NCBI GenBank assembly: GCA_020428535.1
Contig: JAGQMS010000004.1
Coordinates: 35,096 to 59,095, forward strand
Source of the DNA: Candidatus Saccharimonadota bacterium
GTDB lineage: Bacteria > Patescibacteriota > Saccharimonadia > Saccharimonadales > JAGQMS01
DNA length: 24,000 nucleotides
Direction: 5' to 3'
Part shown: one piece after another, positions 9,453-24,000 of the stretch
Numbering within the stretch: the first letter of the stretch is position 1
Layout of the letters: the number at the start of each line of letters is the position of its first letter
Made by a program: the position numbers and the translations under genes
The notes under the pieces: generated by a model
Told to the model about the DNA's origin: nothing
The model's database searches: none
The model's input: the letters and a program-made list of their open reading frames with translations, nothing else

Positions 9453-9529
9453 GGGGGTTACATGGAACTCTTTTATAGATAGCTTGGTTGAACTAGATAA
9501 GAAATTAGCAGAACTAGGTGTGGTGGTTG

Positions 9530-10015: not shown

Positions 10016-10017
10016 TT

Positions 10018-10412: not shown

Positions 10413-10465
10413 AACTTTATTATAGCTCTTATTAATCAGTAAATGTAACCTCTGTAAGCATAAGT

Positions 10466-10493
10466 ATTATACAATCTATTTGCATTATTGCAA
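10466..10493 (-). promoter_or_regulatory. Candidate distal promoter for the XRE gene: TTGCAA-16 nt-TATAAT.
   Basis: The -35 is at 10488-10493 and the -10 at 10466-10471, read on the minus strand. A second TATAAT at 10419-10424 lies 6 nt before the ATG, a leaderless option. Confidence 0.35.
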
Positions 10494-10527
10494 GTTTCTT
10501 TGATATATTCAAGTTACCATAAGGAGG
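10480..10527 (+). promoter_or_regulatory. Candidate T4SS operon promoter TTGCAT-17 nt-ATATAT(T), plus SD AGGAGG.
   Basis: The -35 is at 10480-10485 and the -10 at 10503-10509. AGGAGG at 10522-10527 lies 9 nt before ATG 10537. Confidence 0.4.
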
Positions 10528-10536
10528 TAAAGGTAT

Positions 10537-10878
10537 ATGAGTAAAAAACAGCTCATCTTCCTCAGCTTATATATAGCTGTAGGGGTACCCTTTGTCCTCA
10601 CCAGCACAGCCTTGGCGCAAAGTGCGGGAGAAGTAGGTCAAGTAGAAAACTTCATCCGCAGCGTCATCCAGGTAATAGCAGGATTAGCCGGTCTCGTAGC
10701 GACCGGCTTTTTTGTTGTTGGTGGGTTCGGGTATATAACAAGTTCTGGAAATCCAGAAACATTAGAAAAATCTAAGCGGACGCTTATTTTTTCCGGTATG
10801 GGTCTTGCGATCACTATCGGTGCGTTTGTCTTAAGTAATATAGTCACGTCGTTGGCTTCGAACGCGTTCGGAGGATAA
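10537..10878 (+). CDS. VirB2/TrbC-like T4SS pilin-type protein.
   Basis: It has a signal peptide ending ALAQSA and two hydrophobic helices flanking the conserved loop GYITSSGNPETLEKSK. It sits first in the T4SS operon. Confidence 0.7.
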   Translation: MSKKQLIFLSLYIAVGVPFVLTSTALAQSAGEVGQVENFIRSVIQVIAGLAGLVATGFFVVGGFGYITSSGNPETLEKSKRTLIFSGMGLAITIGAFVLSNIVTSLASNAFGG

Positions 10879-10884
10879 AGCCTA

Positions 10885-12186
10885 GTGGATGCGTTCGTTG
10901 CCCTAATATCAAACGGGGTGGCGAACTTTGCGGTAGTTAATGCAGATGTGCAGAACTACCTCAGACCGATTATGTTTTCTCTTGTGGGCTTAGCCGGGGT
11001 TGTCTCGGCTTTTTTCATTGTTCAGGGTGGTATCGAATACATGACCAGCTCAGGAAAACCAGAGAAACTTGAGCATGCGAAGAAGATATTACGCAACGCA
11101 CTAATTGGTCTCGTCATGGTAATAGGTGCCGCTACGCTCACAGCAATATTAACGAGCGCCTATCAGGACAGCGGTGGTACAAGTATTGAGAATATTCCTA
11201 GCCTAACACCTGTTGAGACTGATACGGGTGGCGGTGGAATAACCGAAGTGCTCATAAATTCCATCATTGGTTTGTTTAAGCACATCATTACGACTGCCGC
11301 CAGTCCGTTCATTAGTGCACTCGATTACTTCACGCACAGCACGCCACTGATGGCGGATAATCCGTCAGTGTTCAAGCTATGGCTTACGATGCTTGGCATT
11401 GCTAATGCACTGTTTGTTGTTGGCGTGGCATTACTTGGGTTCCAAGTAATGAGCGCCTCTTCCCTGGGGCTAGAGGAAATGGAATTTAAACAGCTTCTAC
11501 CTAAACTTGTCTTTACGTTTCTGCTGATGAATATGTCGATATTCGCAATCGACGCCATTATTAGTCTGTCGAACGTCATGATAAGTGCAGTCGAGAGTGC
11601 TTATAGCTCACTATCGGTTTGGGATGCATTAACTGGAGTAGCGGACACCGCTGGTGGTCAAGGTTTTGTGGCCTTACTCATCATGGTCGTATTCCTCATA
11701 CTTGCAGCTATTCTGTTGGTCTATTACGTGATGCGTATCGTAACGCTTTATATCGGAGCCGTGCTATCGCCAATTGTTGCGCTTCTGCAAATCATCCCTG
11801 GCTTTAAGGATTTCACTACAACGGCAATAAAGGTCTATATATCCAATATTTTTGTTCTGTTTGTACATGTCGTGATTCTCACGCTTGCGGCCACCCTGTT
11901 CGATGGACTACGAACTGAAGGTGCTGACCCGCCGTACGATCCAGTCATGGCAATGATTGTCGGTGTCGCAACCTTAATTGCATTGCTTAAAACACAAGGC
12001 GTCATGATGCAGATTAGTTATGTCTCAGTTGGTCCGAGGGCATTGAGGCGACTTGGAAGTGAGTTTATGCACGGCGTTGGCTATCTAAGTAGTCGTAAAG
12101 GCTCATCAAGGCAATTGGCCGGTGAAGAAGCTACGACTACCAAGTCATCTAAACCTAAGAAAGTAACAAAGGAGGGATACAAGTAA
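10885..12186 (+). CDS. VirB6/TrbL-like polytopic membrane protein with an N-terminal VirB2-like pilin domain.
   Basis: GTG start. Residues about 20-100 align with the upstream pilin (GLAGVVSAFFIVQGGIEYMTSSGKPEKLEHAKK against GLAGLVATGFFVVGGFGYITSSGNPETLEKSKR). At least 5 further TM helices and a lysine-rich tail follow. Confidence 0.65.
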   Translation: MDAFVALISNGVANFAVVNADVQNYLRPIMFSLVGLAGVVSAFFIVQGGIEYMTSSGKPEKLEHAKKILRNALIGLVMVIGAATLTAILTSAYQDSGGTSIENIPSLTPVETDTGGGGITEVLINSIIGLFKHIITTAASPFISALDYFTHSTPLMADNPSVFKLWLTMLGIANALFVVGVALLGFQVMSASSLGLEEMEFKQLLPKLVFTFLLMNMSIFAIDAIISLSNVMISAVESAYSSLSVWDALTGVADTAGGQGFVALLIMVVFLILAAILLVYYVMRIVTLYIGAVLSPIVALLQIIPGFKDFTTTAIKVYISNIFVLFVHVVILTLAATLFDGLRTEGADPPYDPVMAMIVGVATLIALLKTQGVMMQISYVSVGPRALRRLGSEFMHGVGYLSSRKGSSRQLAGEEATTTKSSKPKKVTKEGYK

Positions 12187-12693
12187 ATGAAAACGACAAT
12201 TGTACCGGCACAAGTAACATCTGTCGAAGATAGAATCGCCGGAAACTTAAGTTTTAAACAATTGCTACTGATGATTGTTCCGGTGTTTTTGAGCGCTGCG
12301 CTCTTCGCTTTTCTACCTCCGTTTGCATCGTTTCAGATATATAAAGCCGTTATAAGTGTGGCCGTTTTAGTTATCTGTTTAGCGCTTGCCCTGAGAATAA
12401 AAAGTCGCCTAGTAGTCGACTGGGTCGTCATCTTATCACGCTATAATCTGCGACCTCGCTTCTATGTCTACAACAAGAATAATCAGACTGCTCGAATGGT
12501 TGTTGCAAAACAGCAAGCAGCAACGCTGCAAACCGAACAGAAAGTTACTCTGCCAAAACAATCGCCTCAGTTTGCTCATAACACGAATGATGAAATGACA
12601 TTCGAGGAAAGACTTGGCAATCCAGCCGCCAACTTACACTTCACATTCTCAAAGAAAGGAGGATTACGTGTCCATATTAAAGAAATCAGATAA
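12187..12693 (+). CDS. PrgI-family (VirB3-like) T4SS membrane protein.
   Basis: The N-terminus VPAQVTSVEDRIAGNLSFKQLLLMIVPVFLSAALFAFL matches my memory of the PrgI family, including its two TM helices. It lies directly before VirB4. Confidence 0.65.
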   Translation: MKTTIVPAQVTSVEDRIAGNLSFKQLLLMIVPVFLSAALFAFLPPFASFQIYKAVISVAVLVICLALALRIKSRLVVDWVVILSRYNLRPRFYVYNKNNQTARMVVAKQQAATLQTEQKVTLPKQSPQFAHNTNDEMTFEERLGNPAANLHFTFSKKGGLRVHIKEIR

Positions 12694-13279
12694 ACGCGCC
12701 AGCTCGCGTCAGCAGATACAAATTGATGGTGTTCGTGACGGCATACTACTGCTGCCAAAACGTGAATACCGACTAGTGCTAGAAAGCTCTAGTATCAACT
12801 TCGAGCTTATGAGTGAAGACGAGCAGGATGCTCTCATAGATACCTACCAGAATTTTCTCAATTCACTCAATACGAGCTTTCAGATATTGGTTCGAATACG
12901 TGAGCTTGATATGGATAAGTATCTCGAAAACTTCAAATCAAAAGTAAATGATAAAGACGACGAAGTGTACCGCAATCAAGCAAAGAACTATATGGATTTT
13001 GTAAGTGGCTTGGTAACAAATAACAAGATACTCACCAGAAAGTTTTATATTGTCCTGCCATTCAAAGCCGATGCGAATGATTTCAATGTTGCGGCTGAAC
13101 AACTAAAACTGCAAGCAGACATTGTCGCTAAAGGTCTCGGTCGCTTAGGTATGCAAGTAAGAAAACTAAACAGTATTGAAGTGCTTGATTTGTTCTATAG
13201 CTTTTACTCTCCAGGGCAAGCTAAGCGTGCACCACTGCGTGATCAAACAATCCAGCTTCTAAAGGAGGCCTACCTATGA
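12668..13279 (+). CDS. VirB4-family N-terminal domain encoded as a separate ORF.
   Basis: GTG 12668 lies 5 nt after AAAGGAGGA. QIQIDGVRDGILLLPKREYRLVLESSSINFELMSEDEQDALIDTYQNFLNSL is the typical N-terminal region of Gram-positive VirB4 (PrgJ/TraE-type). Its stop overlaps the next ATG (ATGA at 13276-13279). Confidence 0.65.
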   Translation: MSILKKSDKRASSRQQIQIDGVRDGILLLPKREYRLVLESSSINFELMSEDEQDALIDTYQNFLNSLNTSFQILVRIRELDMDKYLENFKSKVNDKDDEVYRNQAKNYMDFVSGLVTNNKILTRKFYIVLPFKADANDFNVAAEQLKLQADIVAKGLGRLGMQVRKLNSIEVLDLFYSFYSPGQAKRAPLRDQTIQLLKEAYL

Positions 13280-15027
13280 ACACCCCCACAAAGCTAAAAC
13301 CGCTACTGAAGAAATTGCCAAAGATTGGCAGTGATTCAAACGAGCCGAAAGACTTTACCTTTGCCTATGGCGAGCAAGACCCCATGGACTTAATTAGTTA
13401 CGCCGGTATGAAAGAGCAGCCAAGTTACTTGGTGATTGATGGGCGCTTTGTGCGAACGCTCTTCATCTCTGGGTATCCCTTTGTTGCAAATTCTGGCTGG
13501 CTTAACAGTCTCATTAACTTCAACAGCAACATAGACATTAGTTACCACATGGATCAAGTTGAAGCGACGCAAGCACTGCCTAAACTGAACAGAAAAATAA
13601 CTGAGCTTGAAAGTACAAAACGCTCAATGATTCGGGCGGGTAAAATTGTTGGTCCAGAGATTACTGATCCGCTCGAAAGTGCGATGGAATTGCGTGATAA
13701 GATTCAGCGCGGTCAAGAAATGCTCTTCCAAACGTCCATTTACGTTGCCTTATCTGCTGACTCATTGCCAGAACTTGAAAAACTTACAAAACTTCTTGAA
13801 ACGACACTTTCAGCAAGATTATTCTTCACCAAAGTTGCTCGCTACCAACAAGTTGAGGGACTTCAGTCTGTCCTTCCCCGAGCAGAGGATGTCTTAAGCC
13901 AAAAAAGAAATCTCGATAGTAGTTCCGCTAGCTTAACCTTTCCATTTATGAGTTCAGAACTTGTGCAGGAAAACGGTATTCTCTACGGCGTCAATAAGTC
14001 TAATAACTCACTGGTCATTCTTGATAGATTTAGCTTACATAATGCTAATTCGATAGTCTTTGCTCAGAGTGGTTCGGGTAAGAGCTATGCGACCAAGGTA
14101 GAAATTCTCCGTCAGCTTATGCAAGGTACGTCCGTCATCGTGATTGATCCGGAACGGGAGTACAAGCTACTCACAGATTCGGTAAACGGCACTTACGTAA
14201 AGCTATCTACCAACAGCAAACAAAAAATTAACCCATTCGATATCAGTACATCTTCAAAGAAGAAACGAGACCTATCGGAACATATCCAAGATGTAACAGA
14301 AATTGTTAGTTTGATGGTTGAGGGATTAAATCCAAAAGAAAAAGCAGCACTGGATAAAGCTTTGCTCAACATGTATAAACACGCCGCTAATAAACAACCA
14401 TTATTAAAAGATTTGTATCATGAGCTTAAGCTCCTTGAACAACTGAAACTATGCGAGCGTCTCGAAAGATACATTTCTGGTTCACTTGCTAATGTGTTCA
14501 ATAAGCGAAGCAATGTTAGCCTCGATAATCGTCTGGTTGTCTTTGATATTAAGGACATGCCTGAATCGCTTAGGCAGCTGATGATACTAATTGTCAGTAA
14601 CTATGTACAAAACGAAGTTAAGATTAATCCTAAAAAACGCTTACTCGTTATTGATGAGGGTTGGTTGCTTTTAGAGCACGAAGAGTCTGCTCGGTTCATC
14701 TCAGGCTTAGTGCGTCGAGCGCGTAAGTACTACTTGGGCGTATCAATCATCTCTCAACAAGCCAATGACTTTTTAAAGAATGATTACGGACGTGCCATAG
14801 CAAGCCAATCGGCGCTTCGCATACTCATGAGACAAGACACGACTACGATTAAGAACGTCGTCTCGCAGTTCAACCTTAGTGAGTATGAACACAACTTCCT
14901 ACTTACCTGCGAAAAAGGCGATGCGCTGATTATTGCCGATAAAAATCATGTAGCAGTGAAAGTTGTTGCCTCAGAAAAAGAACACCCGCTAATTACTACT
15001 AACCCTGCGGAGATATATAACCTGTGA
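13276..15027 (+). CDS. virB4: VirB4-family T4SS ATPase (ATPase domain).
   Basis: Walker A is in IVFAQSGSGKSY and Walker B in RLLVIDEGWLLL. ARKYYLGVSIISQQ is typical of VirB4/TraE. Confidence 0.88.
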   Translation: MNTPTKLKPLLKKLPKIGSDSNEPKDFTFAYGEQDPMDLISYAGMKEQPSYLVIDGRFVRTLFISGYPFVANSGWLNSLINFNSNIDISYHMDQVEATQALPKLNRKITELESTKRSMIRAGKIVGPEITDPLESAMELRDKIQRGQEMLFQTSIYVALSADSLPELEKLTKLLETTLSARLFFTKVARYQQVEGLQSVLPRAEDVLSQKRNLDSSSASLTFPFMSSELVQENGILYGVNKSNNSLVILDRFSLHNANSIVFAQSGSGKSYATKVEILRQLMQGTSVIVIDPEREYKLLTDSVNGTYVKLSTNSKQKINPFDISTSSKKKRDLSEHIQDVTEIVSLMVEGLNPKEKAALDKALLNMYKHAANKQPLLKDLYHELKLLEQLKLCERLERYISGSLANVFNKRSNVSLDNRLVVFDIKDMPESLRQLMILIVSNYVQNEVKINPKKRLLVIDEGWLLLEHEESARFISGLVRRARKYYLGVSIISQQANDFLKNDYGRAIASQSALRILMRQDTTTIKNVVSQFNLSEYEHNFLLTCEKGDALIIADKNHVAVKVVASEKEHPLITTNPAEIYNL

Positions 15028-15683
15028 CCATATTGCTCTGGTTGATAAAGAATACGAAGACAGAAATTAAGATTGTTCTAGCAACCTTAGCTGTGCTCAT
15101 ATTTTTACCGATTGTATCCGTTGTTGTTGTAGCATCTTCTGGTGTGCAGCTTGTCGGTGACGCATTAGCTGCCTTAAATCCAATAACGCACTTGGTCGAG
15201 ATTTTTGACACCGAAGGCAATGTCATTGGTGAGGTTGAGCTTACAACCAATTGGCCTACACGTGGATATATATCTGATGAATTTGGCTCAGAGCAACAGT
15301 TTAGACTCGACTGGGGATTAGGCGCTCATACGGGTATAGATATTGCGAATCAGAATGGACTTATTGGTGAGCCGGTTACACCGTTTATGACAGGTACGGT
15401 TCTGTTTGTTGATCAGGTTGATGACTCAGCTTGCGGCATCAATGTAAAGTTACAGCACGACTTTAATATAACTAGTACGTATTGCCACCTTAGTAGCGCG
15501 GTGAACATCGCACCGACAACCGAAGTGCATCCTGGCGACATCATTGGGTATATGGGTAGTACTGGTGCATCTACTGGTCCGCATCTACATCTCACGACTG
15601 CAGTGTATGGAATACCAATTAATCCTCGTACGTTTCTAGTTGGGGAACCGGAAGGATCAACCGTTGTCGTACCTACTTTTTAG
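15024..15683 (+). CDS. M23 (LytM-type) peptidoglycan hydrolase with an N-terminal membrane anchor. Probable VirB1-analogous wall hydrolase.
   Basis: HTGIDIA and GSTGASTGPHLHL are the M23 metal-binding motifs. A GTGA overlap couples it to the VirB4 stop. Confidence 0.88.
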   Translation: MTILLWLIKNTKTEIKIVLATLAVLIFLPIVSVVVVASSGVQLVGDALAALNPITHLVEIFDTEGNVIGEVELTTNWPTRGYISDEFGSEQQFRLDWGLGAHTGIDIANQNGLIGEPVTPFMTGTVLFVDQVDDSACGINVKLQHDFNITSTYCHLSSAVNIAPTTEVHPGDIIGYMGSTGASTGPHLHLTTAVYGIPINPRTFLVGEPEGSTVVVPTF

Positions 15684-18225
15684 CGTCGGTTTACTAGTTC
15701 TAGCAATTACCTTGCTCGTTGCTAGGTTTGTGTATGGTTTTATACACCTACTGACAAGAAAAATGGTCTACCTAGAAATAATTCCACCTGCTTTCCAAGA
15801 CAAATCACTTGAAGCCACTGATTCACTCTTTGGAGCTTTGCATAAACTTGGCTCACCAACAGCAGTTGAACGCTTGCTTGGCAAAAAGCATATATTCAGT
15901 GTCGAGATACACTCATCCAGTAAACAAGGTATACGATTCATCATAGCGGTTCCTGACGACAAGACTGACACCGTAGAGAAACTAATCCACTCTTTCGTAC
16001 CTGATTCAAAGACTAAGATTATTGATGTAGACACTATCTCTCCCCGAAGGATATTTGAATTTAGACAAAGCAAGCACTTTAGCTATCCTATTCAGTCCTT
16101 TGATATGCCCGAAAAAGACGATCCCTTGGGGTATATAACAGGGTCGATGACGAAACTAAAGGAGGATGAGCGAGCAATATACCAACTGACGTTTAAGCCC
16201 GTACAACTGCGTCAAGCAAAACAACTGCAACAAAAAATACTGAGAAACGATGCGTTCATGCCTGAAGCAAAAGTTAAGGCGGGTTTTTTAACTCCCGTGT
16301 TCTCGTTAACCAATAAACTTCTTTTTGCAGCAGCTGATGCATTTTCTGCCGGGGTTCATCACGATACAACACACTATGCAGTAGTAGGCGCACAACGGGA
16401 CCTGGAATACAAAAAGCAGCTAGCTCGTGGTGATAAGCCAGTTAGAACGCTAAGCTATTTTGAGCATGAAGTGATTGAATCAGTTAATCAAAAATTGAAG
16501 CGTCCTTTGTTTGATTGCCGTGTCCGATTTATTTTGCAGACTAATCAAAAAGAAACAGAGCGCACGGCGAAGCGCTCAATAGTAGCAGCAATCGGTATTT
16601 TTGACGTTTCTGGATATCAGAAACTTAGTCTGCGACGGCGGAAGTTTGGAGTTTCCAGAAAGTTGCAAGAATTAGCGGTTAGCAAGAGATTACTTGGAGT
16701 CAGCTCAGGCCAAAATTATTTCTCAGCCAATGAATTATCTCGGCTGTATCACGTACCGCATTCGCAAACTGTAAAAACAACAAATGTCATTAAGTCGTTA
16801 AGCAAGACTCTGCCTGCACCTGTGTCATTAAAGCAGAACGAAAATTTGGATGTGCTGTTTGGTGAAAATCTCCATCATGGTCAAACGACAGCAATTGGTC
16901 TAACAGCTGCAGAACGTGAACGACATATGTACATTATTGGGGGTACGGGAAATGGTAAGACTACCATGCTCAAATACATGATTTCTCAAGACATTAAGAA
17001 CAATAAAGGTGTTGCAGTAGTTGACCCGCACGGAGACTTAGCTGAGGAACTACTTGGATTAATACCCGAACATAGACTTCAAGATGTGGTGTATATAAGC
17101 CCTGATGACCTCGCTTACCCGATAGGGATTAATCTTCTTGAACTCACTGAAGGATTAACTGGTGATGAGCTACTGCGCGAAAAAGACCTTATAACTGAAT
17201 CAGCCATATCTGTACTCCGTAAACTATTCTCCGAAGACGATAGCGGCGGACACCGTATTGAGTATGTGTTGCGTAACACAATTCAGACAGCACTCACTGT
17301 GCCAGGAGCAAACCTGTTCACTATTTTCCGGCTTTTAAATGATAAGAAATATCGTAAAGATATCGTAAACAGGCTCGAAGACCAGGATTTAAAGATATTC
17401 TGGAAGAACGAACTTGGTAAAGCTGGAGAGATGCAGAAAGTAAAGATGGCAGCTGGTATTACTGCGAAGATCGGACGATTTCTTTTCTCGGCATCAGCTA
17501 AAAGAATCCTAGAGCAAGAAAAATCTACTATTAACTTTGATGCACTGATGGACGAAGGAAAAATCGTCATCTGTAATTTCTCCAAGGGTTTACTAGGAGA
17601 AGATACTTCTATGCTATTTGGTGTTACGGTACTTGCGAAACTCCAGCTTGCGTCTCTTCGGCGTGCTCGGTTAGCACAGGATAATCGTCGGCCGTTTTAT
17701 GTCTATGTTGATGAGTTTCAAAACTTTGCGACTATGAGCTTTGTACAGATGCTCAGTGAAGCGCGTAAGTATAAGTTGTATCTCACGATGGCTGAACAAT
17801 CAACGCAGCAACAGCAAGAACAGCGACTTGTCGATATTATTCTTGCTAATGTCGCTACTGTAGTTGCATTTCGTTCAGGTAGCCCTGCCGATGCTCGACT
17901 ACTCATACCACTATTCAGTCCATATATTGAAGAGCGCGAACTTGCTAACTTGCCGGCCTATAATTTCTACTGTCGAATATCTGCGATTCACGCACAAGAG
18001 CCTCTATCGGGTGTTACGGTATTGCTCGACTCAGAATCCGATGCTCAAGTCGCTGAAATTGTTAGAACGGCATCACGTACCAAGTATGCAAAACAGAAAA
18101 TTGAAGAAGTTATTGTGGATACACCAAGTGTAAATACTCCTGTTAGCAAACCTATAAAAACTCGTAAGAAATCCAAACAATCTACTAAACGCGGTGTACC
18201 GCAGGAGGAACTAATCCATGGCTAG
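15640..18225 (+). CDS. virD4: VirD4/TraG-family type IV coupling protein (T4CP) with a long N-terminal extension.
   Basis: Walker A is IIGGTGNGKTT, near residue 436. Walker B is FYVYVDEFQNF. An N-terminal TM helix is present. The start is uncertain. The track uses TTG 15640. TTG 15664 lies 7 nt after GGAAGGA and is at least as likely. Confidence 0.85.
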   Translation: MGNRKDQPLSYLLFSVGLLVLAITLLVARFVYGFIHLLTRKMVYLEIIPPAFQDKSLEATDSLFGALHKLGSPTAVERLLGKKHIFSVEIHSSSKQGIRFIIAVPDDKTDTVEKLIHSFVPDSKTKIIDVDTISPRRIFEFRQSKHFSYPIQSFDMPEKDDPLGYITGSMTKLKEDERAIYQLTFKPVQLRQAKQLQQKILRNDAFMPEAKVKAGFLTPVFSLTNKLLFAAADAFSAGVHHDTTHYAVVGAQRDLEYKKQLARGDKPVRTLSYFEHEVIESVNQKLKRPLFDCRVRFILQTNQKETERTAKRSIVAAIGIFDVSGYQKLSLRRRKFGVSRKLQELAVSKRLLGVSSGQNYFSANELSRLYHVPHSQTVKTTNVIKSLSKTLPAPVSLKQNENLDVLFGENLHHGQTTAIGLTAAERERHMYIIGGTGNGKTTMLKYMISQDIKNNKGVAVVDPHGDLAEELLGLIPEHRLQDVVYISPDDLAYPIGINLLELTEGLTGDELLREKDLITESAISVLRKLFSEDDSGGHRIEYVLRNTIQTALTVPGANLFTIFRLLNDKKYRKDIVNRLEDQDLKIFWKNELGKAGEMQKVKMAAGITAKIGRFLFSASAKRILEQEKSTINFDALMDEGKIVICNFSKGLLGEDTSMLFGVTVLAKLQLASLRRARLAQDNRRPFYVYVDEFQNFATMSFVQMLSEARKYKLYLTMAEQSTQQQQEQRLVDIILANVATVVAFRSGSPADARLLIPLFSPYIEERELANLPAYNFYCRISAIHAQEPLSGVTVLLDSESDAQVAEIVRTASRTKYAKQKIEEVIVDTPSVNTPVSKPIKTRKKSKQSTKRGVPQEELIHG

Positions 18226-18309: not shown

Positions 18310-18939
18310 TTATGCCGTCTGATCGATTAGATTGAATTCATATTCAGTTATGAGTCTCATATCTTTTTTGTCGAATCCAAGTAGCTCATAATTTTTATCG
18401 CTACCTTGCTTACCTAGCAAGACTAAGTCAAAACTATCAAGTAAGCGTTTAGGAATTACATCCTCCGGGCTTGGCCTTGACGTATCATATAGCAGCTTCA
18501 TATTTGCGTTTTTTGCATTCTGATTAATAGTGATGAGCGCATTAGAAAACCGTTCCGTATCAACACAAGCTGCGTCACACTCATCAATTGCAATAAAGAT
18601 TTGTGGTTTAGAAACGTTGTTCTTGGCTCTATCTTTAGAAAGCTCTGCAAGTTTCTCTAATTTATCTAGAGCCTCCTCCGGATCTGTAATTACAGGACAA
18701 TATAGCTTCTCGGCAATTTTAAACTCATCTTCTTCAGGGTGGTTTACCCAGTGCCCAAATTCAACTTGCTTGAAATCAAATAAAGCAAACTGAATGTCTT
18801 CCGATTTTTTGTTACTTGCATAGCGCTTTATTAATTGTTCAACTAGGTATGATTTACCACTACCTGTTTGCCCAGTAATGAAAGCACTGTTATGAACATT
18901 AAAGGTAAAGTAGTCAGCATCTGTTTTTGCATAGTTCAT
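18310..18939 (-). CDS. Small stand-alone P-loop NTPase, FtsK/HerA/VirB4-clade-like. Last gene of the extended BREX operon.
   Basis: Walker A is GQTGSGKS (residues 23-30) and Walker B is IFIAIDE (D119, E120). An ATGA overlap (18936-18939) joins it to the upstream gene. Confidence 0.7.
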   Translation of the reverse strand: MNYAKTDADYFTFNVHNSAFITGQTGSGKSYLVEQLIKRYASNKKSEDIQFALFDFKQVEFGHWVNHPEEDEFKIAEKLYCPVITDPEEALDKLEKLAELSKDRAKNNVSKPQIFIAIDECDAACVDTERFSNALITINQNAKNANMKLLYDTSRPSPEDVIPKRLLDSFDLVLLGKQGSDKNYELLGFDKKDMRLITEYEFNLIDQTA

Positions 18940-20318
18940 AGTTTCAATAATACCTTATAGATTTCTACCATGGCGAGAGTGTCTAGTTTGCAATACTCTA
19001 CTAGGTCATTAAATATGGTCTCTTTTTGGTCGGCACGTTTATCATCTAACACCGCCTCCATCCATAGTCTTTGAGCGGAACCACCTTCTTGGATGCCGAG
19101 CTCTTTATAAGATAGCTCTGGCACTAAAACGGGGAGCACTTGCTTGATACTTGCGCTACCGTTAAAACGAGGGTCGTCATACCATTTTTTCTTGAAGGGA
19201 ATCATTAAATCTACAACTCTGTCGTTTATAGCTTCCATTTGGTCTTTTAGGTCTGGGTACATATCACCAAGCTCAGAGTTCCGAGCTTTTTCGAATCCTT
19301 CATACCAGACTAGTACAGTTCCTTCAGTTCCAATGTCCTTAAGTAGTTGCTCTGCTAGTGGTCTAGATGGATCAGAGTTTTCTCGGTGTAAATACTCACG
19401 TTGCTCCAACTCTGAATCAGCAGTCTGTAATACATGTAGTGAATACTGGAATGGTATTTGTTGGTAGGGTCTATGTCCGTCGAAGTATGGTACAAGACTC
19501 ATCATTGTTTCATAGTCCAAGAAGTACAATGGGAATTTAAGTTCGTCTAAGAATTGTTTAATCTCGTCATGTTGAATAGTAGGTTGTAGGTCATCTGGGT
19601 ATTGATCTGGTTCTTGCGGAACAATGTTTTCATAAATCTTTAGCCAATCGCTTTTAGAACCTAGCTTCGCGAGTGTAGGGTCGGGGTCTGGCATTTGTTG
19701 TCTCTGGGCAGTTTCTAGAGCCATAGGCATATATTTTGCCGTTAGTTCACCCTTTGAGCGTACATCTTCCGTTATGTCTGTGATCTTAGTTATTTCATCT
19801 GCTTTTATCTCACCGTTACGAATGTATTCTTTGTTTACATGAATGACGTAGATGTTTTTAACCGAATATCCAGCGCCCTCCAAAACCGCAGTCTGGTAGG
19901 CGAGGTCAAATGCATGCTCAGGTTTTGCACTGGTGCTTGCCTTGATTTCATATAAATCAACTTCCTTATCACCAACAAAGCTGACAATATCAGATATGCA
20001 GGTGAAGTCTTGCCACACAAAACGTGGCTGGAATAGGACTTGATCCCCGCGCTCGATTGCTGCGTTGGTACGCTCTGGCATTGACCAATAGCTTTGCTCT
20101 GAATCATCAAAGGAGAATCCAATACTCACGCCTTCTGGGAACAACGCCTCCGCGTATTGCTCAAATTGGTGACCAGCATCAAAGATTACCTGTTGATTCT
20201 CGTCAACGGGTGGTATCAATTCTGGTTTATTTTTCTTTACCCATATCCAAGCGGGGTGTTTGAGAAATAGCATGTAGTCAGATTTTGATATGGTGATCGG
20301 CATATTGCTACTTGTCAT
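18936..20318 (-). CDS. DUF2779-like protein with two nuclease-like halves: N-terminal PD-(D/E)xK (RecB/Cas4-like) and C-terminal RNase-H/DnaQ-like.
   Basis: The N-terminal half reads GHQFEQYAE...CISD(110)IV...DLYE(124)IK(126)AST...DLAYQ, in PD-(D/E)xK order. The C-terminal half has PLYFLD(268)YE(270)T, VWYEGFE and CKLDTLAM. The family call is from memory, not a search. Confidence 0.7.
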   Translation of the reverse strand: MTSSNMPITISKSDYMLFLKHPAWIWVKKNKPELIPPVDENQQVIFDAGHQFEQYAEALFPEGVSIGFSFDDSEQSYWSMPERTNAAIERGDQVLFQPRFVWQDFTCISDIVSFVGDKEVDLYEIKASTSAKPEHAFDLAYQTAVLEGAGYSVKNIYVIHVNKEYIRNGEIKADEITKITDITEDVRSKGELTAKYMPMALETAQRQQMPDPDPTLAKLGSKSDWLKIYENIVPQEPDQYPDDLQPTIQHDEIKQFLDELKFPLYFLDYETMMSLVPYFDGHRPYQQIPFQYSLHVLQTADSELEQREYLHRENSDPSRPLAEQLLKDIGTEGTVLVWYEGFEKARNSELGDMYPDLKDQMEAINDRVVDLMIPFKKKWYDDPRFNGSASIKQVLPVLVPELSYKELGIQEGGSAQRLWMEAVLDDKRADQKETIFNDLVEYCKLDTLAMVEIYKVLLKL

Positions 20319-20475
20319 TCCTTATGATTGGCAATATCACAGCGACATGTTCGTCGGTCTCTTGCAGTTTCTTTAGATCTTCATCACTCATGGTTTGTTT
20401 CTTGGTAGAGTTCTTGCTTTTACCAATCATTAAGAGCGTAATGAGGGTTATAGAAAATGCTGCAACAAAAATCAT
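20308..20475 (-). CDS. 55-aa single-pass membrane micro-protein, not in the supplied ORF track.
   Basis: I translated it by hand as MIFVAAFSITLITLLMIGKSKNSTKKQTMSDEDLKKLQETDEHVAVILPIIRNDK*. Its ATG shares one base with the brxL TAA (TAATG). Its last 11 nt overlap the next ATG. A hydrophobic helix is followed by a KSK...KK positive patch. Confidence 0.5.
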   Translation of the reverse strand: MIFVAAFSITLITLLMIGKSKNSTKKQTMSDEDLKKLQETDEHVAVILPIIRNDK

Positions 20476-22502
20476 TATGTATCCAATGCTTTTTGAACTG
20501 CGTCAGCAGGATCGTTATAGAAGCTTATATTGAACTTTGAAAATGTCTCAGCTGGAACAGATGAAATGTCGTTTGCAGAAGACATAGGTAGTAGAATCGT
20601 CTTTGCTCCTGCATCGAAACAAACTTCTAGTGTGTCTGCTAGATCATCTACTTTACCAATCGTACCTCCGATGGTTAGATTGCCCAATATGACCAATCCG
20701 CTTTTTAGCTGAAGTTTTAAGGATGACGATACAAGAGATACAAATGCAGCCAGTGCTATTTCTTTGCATGGTCCAGTTCCTTGCAAATCTTCAACGTGGA
20801 GTAAGAAATCAGAATTCTCTACATTGATGTTGGCGCTTATACTCTTACGATTTGCTTTGAAGTAATTAAACGCAGTTTGTATTGATTCCTTGGTCTGTCG
20901 ATCAGTGCCGATTCCAGAAATTGACATCTTGCCACTTCCGTTAGGGCTTTCGGTTTCAATTCTATATGTACCAATTTGCCCAGAGGTTCCTCTGCCTACA
21001 AAATAGGCATGACCAGCTTTAAGTGATATTTCTGTAATAAGCTTATCTCCGCTGATTTCAGGTACAGGTACAACTTTTTCTTCGTCATTCTCGATGTCTA
21101 TGTAAGACAGGTGAATATCAAAGAACTCCATGCCACCGATGCGCTTTAGTTGTTCTTTGACTCGGCGTCTACCTTCAACAGCGTATCGTACAACTTCTTC
21201 TAGCTCTTCCTTATTAAACTCACCATTTGGGTAAATTAACTTGATCAATCCTGATACAGTTTTTCTCACGGCAATGACATCACGTTGGTTAAGTTCTTTA
21301 CCAAGTTTGAAGTGATTATCTAGTGCATCACTGTAGGTTCGTTTTCGCATTTCTCGGAAAAACTCAGATAGATAATCTACTATGAATCCGTATTCATTTG
21401 TTATTAATTCAGGACGCATCTTCGGAATCTCCCAACCAGGAAGATAGTAGTGCATACGATCAAAGAATGCGCTGTCGTGGCTCATAGCATCAGGGAATGG
21501 CTCAAATAAGTTTGACGTTTTTAGAATCACTTCAACTGATTGGTTGACGTTTCCTACAAACACCATTGATGCTGTAGCGTTCTTCTCCTCTTTTCCTCGA
21601 GCAAAAGAACCAGATGCCATGTAGTCTTTCATGATCTGCACGCCATCTTTATCTTTAAATGTAATACCAGCAACTTCGTCAAATGCCACACAGTCCCAAA
21701 GTCCCACAAGCCCAACAGTCTTACTGGACATGTTATAGAACAGGTTAGCGACTGTAGTCTGGCCACCAGAAATCAAAATTGAGTTTGGTGATATTTCTTT
21801 ATAGATGTGTGACTTACCAGTTCCACGAGGACCAAGTTCACATAGGTTGTAGTTATTTTCCACAAGCGGTACAGCACGCTCGATGAAATGCCATTTTTGT
21901 CGATAATCTAAGTGGTCTGGCTCCATACCCATCGATCGACATAAGACATCAATCCACTCGTCTTTAGAGAATTGTTTTCGACCATTGAAGACTTCAGTTA
22001 AATCCATGTTTGGCATTTGAATTGGCTTTATGTCATTCACGACGAAAGGTAAATTATTCCGCTCTTCTTCGTCGTGGAAGTAAGAAATTTTAGTAATACA
22101 CCAGATGCCACCAACTAGAAGTTTCTCGAATTTCTTAACGATCTCTGCATCAATTGCGGCGTCTTTGATTCCGAGATTACTAAACTCTGCTTCATACCGA
22201 TCTTTCTTTTCATTCAGGTGGACAGTAATCTTGTCGATAACAGTAAAGTTCTTTAGCTCTCGAATTTTACTTTTTACTTTTTGAGCTTCATCAGGACGAA
22301 CGAAATTTTCAGAAAGTATTTTTTTGACAGTTCCAATGCCATCTTCAATTGCAGCTTCGTCATCTGTTGCACAGTACATACCCAGCAGATACTCGAGTAC
22401 ATACACCGGAACATTGGCACCTTCTTTAATTTTCTTTGTTAAATCTTTGCGGACAACTCTACCAGGAAAAACCTGGTTGAGCTTAGTGTTTAAATTATCC
22501 AT
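20475..22502 (-). CDS. brxL: BREX system Lon protease-like protein BrxL.
   Basis: The N-terminus FPGRVVRKDLTKKIKEGANVPVYVLEYLLGMYCATDDE...NFVRPDEAQKVKSKIRE is the highly conserved BrxL signature. It also has a GPRGTGKS P-loop and a Lon-like C-terminus. The SD GGGAGGAAG lies upstream. Confidence 0.92.
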   Translation of the reverse strand: MDNLNTKLNQVFPGRVVRKDLTKKIKEGANVPVYVLEYLLGMYCATDDEAAIEDGIGTVKKILSENFVRPDEAQKVKSKIRELKNFTVIDKITVHLNEKKDRYEAEFSNLGIKDAAIDAEIVKKFEKLLVGGIWCITKISYFHDEEERNNLPFVVNDIKPIQMPNMDLTEVFNGRKQFSKDEWIDVLCRSMGMEPDHLDYRQKWHFIERAVPLVENNYNLCELGPRGTGKSHIYKEISPNSILISGGQTTVANLFYNMSSKTVGLVGLWDCVAFDEVAGITFKDKDGVQIMKDYMASGSFARGKEEKNATASMVFVGNVNQSVEVILKTSNLFEPFPDAMSHDSAFFDRMHYYLPGWEIPKMRPELITNEYGFIVDYLSEFFREMRKRTYSDALDNHFKLGKELNQRDVIAVRKTVSGLIKLIYPNGEFNKEELEEVVRYAVEGRRRVKEQLKRIGGMEFFDIHLSYIDIENDEEKVVPVPEISGDKLITEISLKAGHAYFVGRGTSGQIGTYRIETESPNGSGKMSISGIGTDRQTKESIQTAFNYFKANRKSISANINVENSDFLLHVEDLQGTGPCKEIALAAFVSLVSSSLKLQLKSGLVILGNLTIGGTIGKVDDLADTLEVCFDAGAKTILLPMSSANDISSVPAETFSKFNISFYNDPADAVQKALDT

Positions 22503-22512
22503 TTCTTCCTCC

Positions 22513-24000
22513 CTATAGCCCTAGATCATTAGTTATTGCAATATCAATACGAAAACCGATTCTGTCGATTTCTATATCTTTTTCATCTTTGATTACCAAA
22601 TAATACTCTTCTGCTGGATTGTATTTAATCGCAGCAAACGCAAACTTCTCACGATACTCTCTTGAACCTGAGTCTTTTGCAGTAGAGTCAGCAATTATTG
22701 TGACCTCATCAGATACTTTGTTCCCGTCAATATTTTCGAAACATGCTTTATATCTCGCTGCCATTTTCTCAGTACTTACAGGTTCGTTTTGCAGGAATGT
22801 TAGGTATGTGATCGCGTTCGTTATTTTAAGAGACATGCCCGAGTAGGTGATGTTCACCTTATCGCGAGCGGAGCCTTTACGAGAAGATTTGTAGTTAAGG
22901 ACAGGTACGATAACTTCTTGAGGCATAGCACCGCCATGATAGTATCTGCCGACTCCACCTTGCTTTGCGAAGACAACATTTGCATGCGGAGTAGAGATGT
23001 ATTTCTTATTGCCATCAAACATATCACTCATACGGAAACTTAATGCAGTTTTGTCTGGGTTGTCTGAGATTGCGTATCGGGCCTTTTGTTTATCGGCATC
23101 AGCAACTTTTGGCATTTTTCTTCGAGCTTCAAGAGTTCCATTTTGGTAGAAGAATCCGTGATCTGACGTTACTAACACGTTTACTCCACTAAATGTAACA
23201 TGCAGGTCGGCAATCAGCTCTGCAATTTCAGTTATAGCTTGGTCACAAGCTTTGAATGTAGCAGCATCATCATGCTCTCCAGTGATATCTATTTTGTCAT
23301 GGTAGATATAGACATATTTCTTGCCAGAGAAGAACGACTTCCAGTCCGATTTTTTCATGTTTCGTACTTCTTCAAACTTCACAGCAAGGTTATCTGGGCT
23401 ATAAGACTTAAGTACGGCATCTCGATTGCCAGCATCTGTTTTCTTGCCGTCAGCCAGTACGGTGTCTTTTCCGTCGTATGTAAGTTTCTTATGAGGTAGT
23501 AACGCAGCCATACCTACCGGCGTGATTGATGGTAGTAGAGATATCATGTATTCCGTATTGATTTCTCCACCGGTACTCATTAATGTCTTATTGCTCGATA
23601 ATTCTTTTGCTACTTCATAGCGTAATCCATCAGAAATGATGACAAATACACGGTCTTTCTTTTCTTCGAGTGGCTGCAAGTACGTATCGTAAAAACTACT
23701 TGCCATTGTGTGCTTGGTAGATGTCCAGTTTTCGTCTGATACAGATGCTTCCCATTTTTCAGCAAGTTTCAACAGCCAATCTTCACCATAAACAAATTCT
23801 ATTTTTTGAGATAGTTCTTTATATTCATCGGGCTTTGCTGTTAAGTCGTAGTAATGGTTGAAGTGGCGATATGCCATATCTACACGGTACGACTCATCAG
23901 CATAGTGTTGTTCTGCGGCGTCTTTGCTCGTCGCTTTTAACTCACCGATTAGCTGTCTGACTGTGGCGTAGAAATTATTTGCTGCCGTTAACATTAAGTA
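22513..24000 (-). CDS. pglZ: BREX alkaline-phosphatase-superfamily protein PglZ, C-terminal about 495 codons. The ORF is open at the right window edge.
   Basis: VFVIISDGLRYEV and VLVTSDHGF are the PglZ-domain motifs. It sits directly upstream of brxL with a 10-nt gap. The frame continues upstream of the listed Met (codons at 23995-24000 read Y-L with no stop). Confidence 0.88.
   Translation of the reverse strand, partial: YLMLTAANNFYATVRQLIGELKATSKDAAEQHYADESYRVDMAYRHFNHYYDLTAKPDEYKELSQKIEFVYGEDWLLKLAEKWEASVSDENWTSTKHTMASSFYDTYLQPLEEKKDRVFVIISDGLRYEVAKELSSNKTLMSTGGEINTEYMISLLPSITPVGMAALLPHKKLTYDGKDTVLADGKKTDAGNRDAVLKSYSPDNLAVKFEEVRNMKKSDWKSFFSGKKYVYIYHDKIDITGEHDDAATFKACDQAITEIAELIADLHVTFSGVNVLVTSDHGFFYQNGTLEARRKMPKVADADKQKARYAISDNPDKTALSFRMSDMFDGNKKYISTPHANVVFAKQGGVGRYYHGGAMPQEVIVPVLNYKSSRKGSARDKVNITYSGMSLKITNAITYLTFLQNEPVSTEKMAARYKACFENIDGNKVSDEVTIIADSTAKDSGSREYREKFAFAAIKYNPAEEYYLVIKDEKDIEIDRIGFRIDIAITNDLGL

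What the first reader, a model, noticed from the sequence alone, without database searches (positions are those of the whole stretch)
18310..20475. Three-gene extension fused to the end of a type 1 BREX operon: TM micro-peptide, DUF2779-like two-nuclease-domain protein and a bare FtsK/HerA-like ATPase
Canonical type 1 BREX ends with brxL. Here three more same-strand ORFs follow with no intergenic DNA at all.
- The 55-aa TM peptide starts inside the brxL stop codon (TAATG, 20473-20477).
- The 460-aa ORF starts 11 nt before the peptide stop.
- The 209-aa ATPase starts in an ATGA overlap (18936-18939).

The 460-aa protein reads as two nuclease halves. One is a PD-(D/E)xK half (D110, E124-x-K126). 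The other is a DnaQ/RNase-H-like half (FLD268-Y-E270-T, KLDTLAM).

The ATPase is only a P-loop core (GQTGSGKS, IFIAIDE).

Pairing a nuclease with an FtsK/HerA-type ATPase is a recurring defence and repair logic (HerA-NurA, HerA-DUF4297, HerA-SIR2). BREX loci are known to carry embedded accessory nucleases, such as the GmrSD-type BrxU. I do not recognise this trio as a named system. It could be a BREX accessory effector or an independent anti-phage/anti-plasmid module co-transcribed with BREX. It also sits tail to tail with a T4SS.
Basis: partly seen in the sequence, partly recalled or inferred. Interest (0 to 1): 0.82.

Follow-up and report, generated by a model that had tools for sequence, protein, structure and literature searches.

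The report
Conserved double nuclease capping a defence island
The three genes after BREX are real but are not one BREX add-on: the double nuclease (DUF2779) is a conserved Saccharibacteria gene found at the end of many different defence operons, while the small ATPase and the tiny membrane peptide come and go independently.

Summary
Three tightly packed minus-strand ORFs follow brxL: a 55-aa TM peptide, a 460-aa (probably 455-aa) DUF2779 protein and a 209-aa FtsK-type P-loop protein.

The interpretation as one "three-gene BREX extension" is not supported. The window comes from a Candidatus Saccharibacteria chromosome.
- The closest relative (96%) has the same T4SS flank. It carries type ISP/Pif1 instead of BREX and the peptide, and an unrelated 479-aa gene instead of the ATPase.
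- A relative with the same BREX, peptide and DUF2779 lacks the ATPase.

The ATPase belongs to a small family (about 42 clusters at 50% identity, so far seen in Saccharibacteria-type contexts). It is loosely linked to DUF2779, to the T4SS coupling protein and to a "domain X".

The Cas4-like + DEDD architecture of DUF2779 is already published.

The new lead is different. DUF2779 behaves as a promiscuous terminal nuclease of defence islands, in Saccharibacteria and on plasmids of other phyla.

The parts
22513..23994 (-). PglZ of a type 1 BREX system. The 5' end runs off the window.
   Evidence: Pfam PglZ 1.3e-44; PADLOC PglZ 3.6e-143. Relatives L001 and L117 show the full PglZ (832 aa), preceded by PglX and BrxC.
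20475..22502 (-). BrxL, the last canonical gene of type 1 BREX.
   Evidence: BrxL_N, BrxL_ATPase and Lon_C domains. TIGR02653 scores 1110 bits against a cutoff of 628. PADLOC BrxL scores 1103 bits. dN/dS is 0.005 against L117.
20308..20475 (-). A 55-aa ORF with an N-terminal hydrophobic helix (MIFVAAFSITLITLLMIG) and a charged tail. It is lineage-restricted and travels with this BREX.
   Evidence: The start overlaps the brxL stop as TAATG. Only two clusters exist among 5.8 billion proteins, at 100% and 87% identity. Both lie between brxL and DUF2779. dN/dS is 0.21, from 9.3 synonymous and 8.7 non-synonymous changes. There are no family hits. It is absent from L113.
18936..20318 (-). DUF2779 protein, with a probable true start at 20303 (455 aa). 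It joins a Cas4/RecB-like PD-(D/E)xK half (about aa 1-205, window 19704-20318) to a DEDDy 3'-5' exonuclease half (about aa 260-460, window 18939-19541).
   Evidence: PF11074 4.4e-43, with weak Cas4 and RNase_H_2 hits. Invariant D110/E124/K126 and D268/E270/D370/Y442/D446. AF2 pLDDT 77, and Foldseek matches to Cas4, RecE, AdnAB, Exo5 and ACE1. Orthologues 67-96% identical occur across Saccharibacteria.
18310..18939 (-). A 209-aa stand-alone RecA-like core of the FtsK/HerA superfamily (the mini-ATPase). It sits in a variable slot between DUF2779 and the T4SS.
   Evidence: PF01580 1.4e-9, covering profile positions 42-120 only. Walker A, Walker B and R155 are conserved in 16 homologues. AF2 pLDDT 90.9, with top matches to the FtsK motor, EssC/EccC, TcpA and STIV2 B204. 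The family is small: 16 hits and 42 clusters at E<=1e-30.
15640..18225 (+). T4SS coupling protein (VirD4/TraG-like). It is convergent with the ATPase, with an 84-nt spacer.
   Evidence: Pfam DUF87, TrwB_AAD_bind, TraG-D_C and T4SS-DNA_transf. Gene callers use an 820-aa version.
9518..15683 (+). The rest of the chromosomal MPF-FATA-type T4SS cluster: PLD-like nuclease, pilin, TrbL/VirB6, VirB4 and M23 peptidase.
   Evidence: Pfam hits. The same cluster is syntenic in L113 and L026. The literature describes it as chromosomal, lacking a relaxase and essential for epibiosis (PMC12102498).

Best explanation
The locus is a composite, not a three-gene BREX extension.

**1. DUF2779 is the fixed element.**
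- It is a conserved Saccharibacteria gene encoding a Cas4-like PD-(D/E)xK domain fused to a DEDDy 3'-5' exonuclease domain.
- In this group DUF2779 has almost no upstream intergenic DNA. It is therefore most likely expressed as the last cistron of whichever defence operon lies upstream (inferred).

**2. The 55-aa TM ORF is a lineage-specific appendage of this particular BREX.**

**3. The 209-aa FtsK-type mini-ATPase fills a second variable slot.**
- This slot lies between DUF2779 and the core chromosomal T4SS.
- The ATPase belongs to a small family so far seen only in Saccharibacteria-type contexts. The family recurs near DUF2779, near the T4SS coupling protein, and fused or adjacent to a 130-aa "domain X".

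**Proposed mechanism (inferred, not shown).**
- DUF2779 is a general DNA-end processor. Its Cas4/RecB-like domain attacks 5' ends and its DEDDy domain attacks 3' ends.
- It would act on the breaks made by upstream restriction-type systems, degrading cut foreign DNA much as RecBCD does in E. coli.
- In these nucleotide-auxotrophic epibionts it may also feed salvage or repair.
- The mini-ATPase is at most an optional partner.
For: **Shown: different defence genes lie directly upstream of DUF2779, on the same strand.**
- L011: type I R-M plus a DUF4145 protein.
- L012: type ISP + Pif1 + GmrSD.
- L016: MmeI, a helicase, T5orf172, ThsA and ThsB.
- L021: RE_endonuc.
- L024: type I R-M upstream, and PDC-S14 downstream.
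- L113: type ISP + Pif1.
- L015: PDC-S14-like + DUF6994.
- Window and L117: BREX.

**Shown: the junction is unusually tight.** It is 4 nt or less in 9 of 11 lineages, against 41% of 75 background same-strand junctions (binomial P = 0.008).

**Shown: the three genes assort independently**.

**Shown: catalytic residues are invariant and the folds match**.

**Shown: the pattern recurs outside Saccharibacteria.** On plasmids of five other phyla, DUF2779 follows heterogeneous defence-like genes on the same strand. These include AAA+, GHKL and DUF4145-NACHT ATPases, a kinase-helicase with a PLD protein, and a PD-(D/E)xK nuclease. WYL, PLD and dGTPase genes are neighbours.

**Shown: ATPase links.**
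- DUF2779 is followed directly by the ATPase, with an ATGA overlap, in the window and in L112.
- Domain X is fused to long-form ATPases, free after the ATPase in L024, and free directly after DUF2779 in L115.
Against: - No functional data exist for any DUF2779 protein.
- Identity of 70-77% across Saccharibacteria genera is more typical of a housekeeping gene than of a defence gene.
- The Mycoplasma homologue MMSYN1_0389 is quasi-essential in JCVI-syn3.0 (PMC13621843). A Mycoplasma bovis DUF2779 transposon mutant is listed in a table of mutants from a study of survival in cell culture (PMC7373297).
- More distant CPR homologues (46-49% identity: L022, L023) have AT-rich upstream regions and no same-strand defence gene directly upstream. 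In L020 the gene is 5'-truncated with no defence gene upstream.
- Tight gene junctions are common in these compact genomes (41% background).
- The plasmid sample is biased towards accessory and defence genes.
- Only about 12 Saccharibacteria lineages were examined.
Confidence: 0.5

Rival explanations
1. **Hotspot only.** DUF2779 is a purely housekeeping repair or salvage nuclease. Defence islands merely integrate beside it, as they do beside core genes at the E. coli immigration control region. On this reading BREX and DUF2779 have no functional relationship.
For: - Sequence conservation is high, and the gene is present on contigs of about 1 Mb.
- The cargo is swapped between near-identical strains while DUF2779 and the T4SS stay in place.
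- The Mycoplasma homologue is quasi-essential.
- Distant homologues have their own upstream region and lack a same-strand defence gene directly upstream.
- Saccharibacteria are naturally competent and recombine short homologies (PMC10187176). That gives a route for cargo exchange through conserved flanks.
Against: - The same defence-like neighbourhoods recur on plasmids of unrelated phyla, where a core-gene anchor cannot be the explanation.
- The upstream junction is tighter than background (P = 0.008), so DUF2779 lacks room for its own promoter.
- Defence or mobile genes also occur downstream of DUF2779: PDC-S14 in L024 and terminase/ParB-methylase genes in L021. DUF2779 therefore lies inside the island, not at a clean island/core boundary.
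Confidence: 0.3
2. **ATPase-nuclease machine.** DUF2779, the mini-ATPase and optionally domain X form a self-contained motor-nuclease in the manner of HerA-NurA. It would be independent of BREX and present here in its most compact form.
For: - DUF2779 is followed directly by the ATPase, with an ATGA overlap, in two lineages. Their DUF2779 proteins are only 50% identical but their ATPases are 75% identical.
- In L024 the order is DUF2779, two genes, ATPase, domain X.
- In L115 domain X directly follows DUF2779, while elsewhere it is fused to the ATPase. This is a Rosetta-stone type link.
- In L017 and L018 a full-length FtsK-like protein (505 aa) lies one gene downstream of DUF2779.
Against: - Most DUF2779 orthologues have no such ATPase within 10 kb.
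- Four of seven mini-ATPase lineages (L026, L109, L110, L111) show no DUF2779 in the DNA held; L110 and L111 are short contigs.
- The ATPase is equally often next to the T4SS coupling protein.
- It also sits near a conserved hydrolase + HAD-like gene pair. That pattern looks like loose synteny.
- No complex prediction could be run.
Confidence: 0.15
3. **The first reader's model.** The peptide, DUF2779 and the ATPase form a dedicated three-gene accessory or effector module of this BREX system.
For: - The genes overlap or abut, and no promoter-like or terminator-like site was found on the coding strand at the junctions.
- The arrangement is identical on 11 metagenome contigs, but these are the same lineage.
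Against: - L113 has DUF2779 (96% identical) without BREX, the peptide or the ATPase.
- L117 has BREX, the peptide and DUF2779 without the ATPase.
- DUF2779 follows at least nine non-BREX defence operons.
- The peptide exists in only two protein clusters.
Confidence: 0.05
4. **T4SS accessory.** The mini-ATPase is an accessory component of the Saccharibacteria T4SS, a second FtsK-like ATPase beside the coupling protein. It is unrelated to DUF2779 and to defence.
For: - It lies next to the T4SS coupling protein in the window, in L026/L027 and in L111.
- It resembles FtsK-type coupling proteins such as TcpA in structure.
Against: - Its orientation relative to the coupling protein varies: convergent in the window, same direction in L026.
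- It is separated from the T4SS operon by other genes.
- In L024 it lies on the far side of the defence island from the T4SS.
- In L109, L110 and L112 no T4SS gene is present in the DNA held.
Confidence: 0.12

Closest known systems
PF11074/DUF2779 family (NCBIfam UU173 family; Mycoplasma MMSYN1_0389)
   Same: - It shares the two-domain build: a Cas4-like PD-(D/E)xK domain plus a DEDD(h/y) exonuclease domain.
- It shares the conserved D..E-x-K triad, the four acidic residues and the Tyr.
- This architecture is described in PMC3985635 (family F.17) and PMC13621843.
   Different: - The Saccharibacteria protein is compact (about 450 aa, against about 650 for the UU173 profile).
- Here it is always the last or an internal gene of a defence island.
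- The published accounts do not describe that genomic pattern.
Cas4 and other accessory Cas4-family nucleases (solo-Cas4; Argonaute-associated ACE1)
   Same: - The N-terminal half has the same fold and catalytic triad.
- Like Cas4, the gene is attached to many different immune operons.
   Different: - The Pfam Cas4 hit is below threshold (15.7 bits against 22.7).
- The four-Cys Fe-S signature was not assessed here.
- It is fused to a DEDDy exonuclease.
- No CRISPR or Argonaute genes are nearby.
TM0106 / COG2251 RecB-like nuclease + PF13482 exonuclease proteins
   Same: It has the same domain logic: a PD-(D/E)xK domain joined to an RNase H-like 3'-5' exonuclease (PMC3985635).
   Different: Hits are very weak (TIGR03491 E 0.016; PF13482 E 0.09). 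It is a different Pfam family.
HerA-NurA and other HerA/FtsK ATPase + nuclease defence or repair pairs
   Same: A P-loop ATPase of the FtsK/HerA superfamily is encoded next to a nuclease, with translational coupling.
   Different: - The ATPase is only the 209-aa RecA-like core and is too short to carry a HerA N-terminal barrel.
- The nuclease is not NurA, SIR2 or DUF4297.
- The pairing is not conserved across homologues.
STIV2 B204 and other minimal FtsK/HerA-type NTPases
   Same: It is a stand-alone core of about 200 aa with a similar fold (TM 0.62 normalised to B204).
   Different: It is not viral: there is no packaging context and no phage hits.
BREX accessory genes (such as the GmrSD-type BrxU) and defence-island hotspots such as the E. 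coli immigration control region
   Same: - An extra nuclease is co-transcribed with BREX.
- Variable defence cargo sits between conserved flanks.
   Different: - The nuclease is not specific to BREX.
- The conserved "flank" is itself a nuclease that also associates with defence genes on plasmids of other phyla.

Membership tests
Type 1 BREX | BrxL (Lon-like) and PglZ are present | tested here: met
   TIGR02653 scores 1110 bits (cutoff 628). PglZ matches Pfam at 1.3e-44 and PADLOC at 3.6e-143.
Type 1 BREX | BrxC and PglX lie upstream (BrxA and BrxB further on) | tested here: inconclusive
   These lie outside the window. The relative L117 (BrxL 99.3% aa) has BrxC and an Eco57I-type PglX. BrxA and BrxB were not seen in the DNA held.
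Type 1 BREX | The three extra ORFs are part of the conserved gene set | tested here: not met
   There are no BREX-family hits for any of them. DUF2779 and the ATPase occur without BREX.
PF11074 / DUF2779 | Pfam model matched above its gathering score | tested here: met
   147 bits against a cutoff of 23.3, covering the full profile 1-126.
PF11074 / DUF2779 | PD-(D/E)xK triad, and a DEDD set with Tyr or His | tested here: met
   D110, E124, K126, D268, E270, D370, Y442 and D446 are invariant in 30 sequences.
NCBIfam UU173 family | Score above the curated cutoff | tested here: not met
   87.4 bits against a cutoff of 225. It is related but not a member of that subfamily.
Cas4 (PF01930) | Pfam model above its gathering score | tested here: not met
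   15.7 bits against 22.7. Fold-level similarity only.
FtsK/SpoIIIE (PF01580) | Pfam model above its gathering score | tested here: met
   38.2 bits against 24, but only profile positions 42-120 of 221 are covered.
FtsK/SpoIIIE (PF01580) | Walker A, Walker B and a RecA-like motor fold | tested here: met
   These residues are invariant in A1. Foldseek matches the FtsK motor at E 6.5e-10, TM 0.65-0.73.
FtsK/SpoIIIE (PF01580) | Alpha domain, gamma (DNA-recognition) domain or membrane anchor of true translocases | tested here: not met
   The protein is 209 aa, and the whole chain is the single RecA-like domain.
HerA | HerA central domain (PF01935) above threshold, plus the extra N-terminal barrel | tested here: not met
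   PF01935 scores 20.5 bits against 23.2, on the P-loop only. At 209 aa, with the whole chain forming one RecA-like domain, there is no room for an extra N-terminal domain.
HerA-NurA type pair | Conserved co-occurrence of the ATPase with its nuclease | tested here: not met
   DUF2779 is adjacent or near in 3 of 7 ATPase lineages, and the ATPase is absent from most DUF2779 loci.
MADS (mad8) | Full-length match to mad8 | tested here: not met
   30 bits, on positions 27-113 of 314 only (the P-loop region).
Any named defence system (PADLOC 2.0) | System-specific HMM hits for the three proteins | tested here: not met
   Only generic P-loop and weak Cas4 hits were found. DefenseFinder was not available.

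The most novel reading that the evidence does not exclude
DUF2779 may be a general plug-in nuclease of prokaryotic immunity. On this reading it is a Cas4-like/DEDDy end processor recruited as the terminal gene by many unrelated defence systems. These include BREX, type I and ISP R-M, Thoeris, AIPR, GmrSD, and NACHT/STAND-, GHKL- and AAA+-based operons, in Saccharibacteria and on plasmids of several phyla. It would finish off or recycle the DNA those systems cut. In Saccharibacteria it would have become fixed as a core gene. The FtsK-type mini-ATPase, with or without domain X, would be an optional motor partner.
Probability: 0.3. Interest if true: 0.75.

Novelty: new member of a known kind. Interest (0 to 1): 0.45.

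Why it matters
**What it prevents.** It stops a mis-annotation: a "BREX + 3" system that does not exist as a unit.

**A testable lead.** DUF2779 is a widespread family of unknown function, and it is quasi-essential in the minimal cell JCVI-syn3.0. Here it shows a strikingly regular position at the end of diverse defence operons. If DUF2779 does process DNA cut by defence systems, three things might follow.
- It could explain why the gene is retained in tiny genomes.
- It would link immunity to DNA salvage in nucleotide-auxotrophic epibionts.
- It would give a marker gene for locating the main defence island, and new defence genes, in Saccharibacteria.

**Practical use.** It may also matter for improving transformation of these organisms.

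Tried and rejected
- **DNA search against plasmids.** The three-gene region gave no match.
- **Phage search.** The DUF2779 protein gave no phage hits.
- **Solved structures by sequence.** DUF2779 gave nothing. The ATPase gave only marginal FtsK hits.
- **Metagenome scan with the ATPase alignment.** It returned mostly generic FtsK homologues at 25-33% identity. Only two true family members appeared, both on short contigs, so it gave no co-occurrence statistics.
- **Recombination at the DUF2779 3' end in L112.** I suspected this because the ATPase is 75% identical while DUF2779 is 50%. The C-terminus is equally well conserved in another distant homologue, L022, so this is not evidence.
- **Terminator between the ATPase and the coupling protein.** No stable structure was found (z = +1.8). 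The promoter/terminator scan found no convincing site on the coding strand at the junctions.
- **Small ORF upstream of DUF2779 on the Aliarcobacter faecis plasmid.** It lies inside the tblastn match, so it is probably a split N-terminus and not a peptide analogue.
- **Tn-seq supplement of the Saccharibacteria genetics paper.** It is not held.
- **PADLOC on the unknown upstream neighbours.** The 341-, 348-, 616- and 671-aa proteins and the DUF2130 protein gave no hits.
Full report
**1. Observation**

The minus strand carries, in order, PglZ (22513-23994, cut by the window end), BrxL (20475-22502), a 55-aa ORF (20308-20475), a 460-aa ORF (18936-20318) and a 209-aa ORF (18310-18939).
- Homologues of the 460-aa protein begin M-x-(I/L)-SKSDYM. 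The real start is therefore probably Met6 (ATG at 20303), 4 nt after the peptide stop.
- BrxL and PglZ are unambiguous.
- The plus strand carries a T4SS cluster, convergent with these genes: PLD-like nuclease, pilin, TrbL, VirB4, M23 peptidase and a coupling protein ending at 18225.
- Housekeeping genes such as ArgRS lie further left.

**2. What the three proteins are**

*The 460-aa protein.*
- It is a full PF11074/DUF2779 member (E 4e-43), with a sub-threshold Cas4 hit on residues 110-187.
- In an alignment of 30 homologues down to 50% identity, D110, E124 and K126 (PD-(D/E)xK) are invariant. So are D268, E270, D370, Y442 and D446 (DEDDy).
- An AlphaFold model (pLDDT 77) matches Cas4, RecE, AdnAB, Exo5 and the Argonaute-associated Cas4 protein ACE1 in its N-terminal half.
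- This fusion is already in the literature. Majorek et al. 2014 placed DUF2779 among the 3'-5' exonucleases and noted its co-occurrence with the PD-(D/E)xK-like DUF83 domain. A 2026 mSphere paper describes the quasi-essential JCVI-syn3.0 gene MMSYN1_0389 as a Cas4-like + DEDDh/y fusion.

*The 209-aa protein.*
- It has an invariant Walker A, Walker B (E120) and a near-invariant R155.
- Its model is confident (pLDDT 90.9).
- Its best structural matches are the FtsK motor domain (E 6.5e-10), EssC/EccC, the coupling protein TcpA and the 202-aa viral NTPase B204.
- It is only the RecA-like core of the FtsK/HerA superfamily.

*The 55-aa ORF.*
- It has a hydrophobic N-terminal helix and a charged tail.
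- It matches no family.

**3. Origin**

Homologues are annotated as Candidatus Saccharibacteria, and many lie on contigs of 0.9-1.1 Mb. The T4SS of this group is chromosomal, lacks a relaxase and is essential for epibiotic growth (PMC12102498). The window is therefore chromosomal DNA, not a plasmid or an integrative conjugative element.

**4. The trio is not a unit**

Identical copies of the locus occur on 11 metagenome contigs, but those are one lineage. Three comparisons separate the genes.
- **L113.** DUF2779 is 96% identical, and the flanking T4SS is the same (VirB4 92%, pilin 95%). Upstream lie type ISP R-M, Pif1 and a 671-aa protein. Downstream lies an unrelated 479-aa gene. There is no BREX, no peptide and no ATPase.
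- **L117.** The order is BrxC, PglX, PglZ, BrxL (99.3% aa), the peptide (87%) and DUF2779 (92%). A receiver-domain-like gene then replaces the ATPase. Nucleotide homology with the window stops at 18955, the 3' end of DUF2779.
- **L112.** A divergent DUF2779 (50%) is directly followed, again with an ATGA overlap, by an ATPase that is 75% identical.

**5. The striking regularity: DUF2779 closes many different defence operons**

In Saccharibacteria loci where DUF2779 is 67-96% identical, the genes just upstream on the same strand are as follows.

| Locus | Upstream genes |
|---|---|
| L011 | Type I R-M + a DUF4145/S-like protein |
| L012 | Type ISP + Pif1 + GmrSD |
| L015 | PDC-S14-like GIY-YIG + DUF6994 + unknown |
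| L016 | MmeI-type R-M + helicase + T5orf172 + ThsA-Macro + ThsB-TIR |
| L017/L018 | Type I R-M + two unknowns |
| L021 | RE_endonuc |
| L024 | Type I R-M (with PDC-S14 downstream) |
| L113 | Type ISP + Pif1 |
| L115 | NYN, Fic, DUF2130 |
| Window, L117 | BREX |

- The upstream stop and the DUF2779 start are 4 nt apart or less in 9 of 11 lineages. The figure for 75 other same-strand junctions in the same loci is 41% (P = 0.008).
- There are exceptions. L020 has a 5'-truncated copy next to alaS. The distant homologues L022 and L023 (46-49%) have AT-rich upstream regions.

**6. Outside Saccharibacteria**

DUF2779 proteins (24-36% identical) occur on plasmids of Campylobacterota, Cyanobacteriota, Bacillota, Pseudomonadota and Rhodothermota. 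No phage carries one. In the plasmid contexts examined, the gene usually follows a different defence-like gene on the same strand.
- AAA+ ATPases in two Helicobacter plasmids and in Rhodoferax. In Selenomonas an AAA+ ATPase lies two genes upstream.
- A GHKL ATPase in Planktothrix.
- A DUF4145-NACHT protein in Aliarcobacter cryaerophilus.
- A kinase-SF1-helicase plus a PLD protein in A. faecis.
- A PD-(D/E)xK nuclease in A. butzleri.
- In two plasmids (Hydrogenimonas, Salinibacter) the upstream neighbours are only unannotated hypothetical genes.

WYL regulators, PLD nucleases, dGTPase, an OLD-type endonuclease with DUF2130, and toxin-antitoxin genes are neighbours. The sample is biased towards accessory genes. 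Even so, it shows the same promiscuous placement at or near the ends of defence-like operons, in a setting where a core-gene anchor cannot explain it.

**7. The mini-ATPase**

It is rare: 16 homologues in the 5.8-billion-protein search, and 42 clusters at E<=1e-30 among 1.84 billion representatives. Its contexts are listed below.
- Directly after DUF2779 in the window and in L112.
- Three genes after DUF2779 in L024.
- Just beyond the T4SS coupling protein in the window, L026/L027 and L111.
- Followed by a 145-aa protein and convergent with an MmeI island in L109.
- In a SpoU/NUDIX context in L110.

Three further links stand out.
- **Domain X.** Long forms (about 340 aa) carry a C-terminal "domain X". 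The same domain is a free gene after the ATPase in L024, and a free gene directly after DUF2779 in L115/L116 (54% identity, E 4e-48).
- **A recurring gene pair.** A 205-209-aa protein with a GxSxG motif, paired with a 139-147-aa protein, recurs around the ATPase, DUF2779 and the coupling protein. I read the smaller protein as HAD-like from its DIDGVLL and WFDDD motifs. That is my reading of the sequence, not a database hit.
- **A full-length FtsK-like protein.** A 505-aa protein lies one gene downstream of DUF2779 in L017/L018.

Together these show a loose neighbourhood. A functional link between the ATPase and DUF2779 is possible but unproven.

**8. The peptide**

- Only two protein clusters exist (100% and 87% identical). 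Both lie between brxL and DUF2779.
- dN/dS is 0.21, from 9.3 synonymous and 8.7 non-synonymous changes, and the substitutions are conservative.
- The last 26 codons show only two changes, both synonymous.
- It is plausibly a real small membrane protein tied to this BREX lineage, but the evidence is thin.

**9. Interpretation**

The best-supported model is a composite locus.
- Variable defence cargo (here BREX, with its lineage-specific small ORF) sits upstream of a fixed DUF2779 gene.
- DUF2779 is probably expressed by read-through.
- A second variable slot, here holding the mini-ATPase, lies between DUF2779 and the core T4SS.

What DUF2779 does is inferred. A nuclease combining Cas4/RecB-like and DEDDy activities suits degradation or resection of DNA ends. 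Its position suggests it acts on the products of the upstream systems. Its conservation, and the quasi-essentiality of the Mycoplasma homologue, suggest a parallel housekeeping role in repair or salvage.

The main rival is a pure hotspot effect. The plasmid data and the junction statistics argue against it but do not exclude it.

**10. Verdict**

- The reading as a three-gene BREX extension is rejected.
- The protein families are known or are new members of known kinds.
- The position of DUF2779 at the end of defence islands is, as far as the searched literature shows, undescribed and worth a systematic census.

Noticed in passing
L115:11364-11768; L024:10610-10999; P0127, P0129, P0130, P0134, P0135 (C-terminal ~140 aa): A domain of about 130 aa with no Pfam hit ("domain X") occurs in three arrangements. 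It is fused to the mini-ATPase, free just after the ATPase, and free just after DUF2779.
   Followed up: partly
L024:11018-12066; L111:2917-3977; L113:61-1190; L115:13310-14355; L026:9511-9936; L109:2556-2993; L018:9606-10034: A gene pair recurs near the mini-ATPase, DUF2779 and the T4SS coupling protein in many Saccharibacteria. One member is 205-209 aa with a GxSxG motif. The other is 139-147 aa with HAD-like motifs (DIDGVLL, WFDDD). Neither has a Pfam hit.
   Followed up: partly
window 9518-10015 (+): A small PLD-like (Nuc-type) nuclease gene lies about 520 nt upstream of the T4SS pilin gene.
   Followed up: no
window 20308-20385 vs L117:10091-10168: The 3' half of the peptide ORF is far better conserved at the nucleotide level (2 changes in 78 nt) than the surrounding genes (about 10-15% divergence). 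It may carry a signal for DUF2779 expression.
   Followed up: no
L021:2451-5711: In a relative with 95%-identical DUF2779, the slot downstream holds phage-like genes on the opposite strand (terminase large subunit, ParB-methylase). The downstream slot therefore also receives mobile DNA.
   Followed up: no
L020:2423-3667: This DUF2779 copy (77% identical) lacks the first ~40 codons. It sits next to alaS with no defence genes upstream, and may be a remnant left after island loss.
   Followed up: no
L024:7055-7273: A called 72-aa ORF bridges the HsdR stop and the DUF2779 start, overlapping both. It is not similar to the window's 55-aa peptide.
   Followed up: partly
P0170, P0175, P0181-P0183, P0194, P0198: Giant proteins of 2,400-3,100 aa contain 5-7 tandem copies of a domain matching the mini-ATPase profile.
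   Followed up: no
L115:8457-10001 and L120:1129-2415: A DUF2130 protein lies directly upstream of DUF2779 in a Saccharibacterium. Another lies near DUF2779, next to an OLD-type endonuclease, on an Aliarcobacter butzleri plasmid. DUF4145 likewise recurs upstream of DUF2779 (L011; L119, fused to NACHT).
   Followed up: no
window 15640-15683: The longest ORF of the coupling protein starts at a TTG overlapping the M23 peptidase gene by 44 nt. Gene callers on identical contigs use a later start, giving 820 aa.
   Followed up: no
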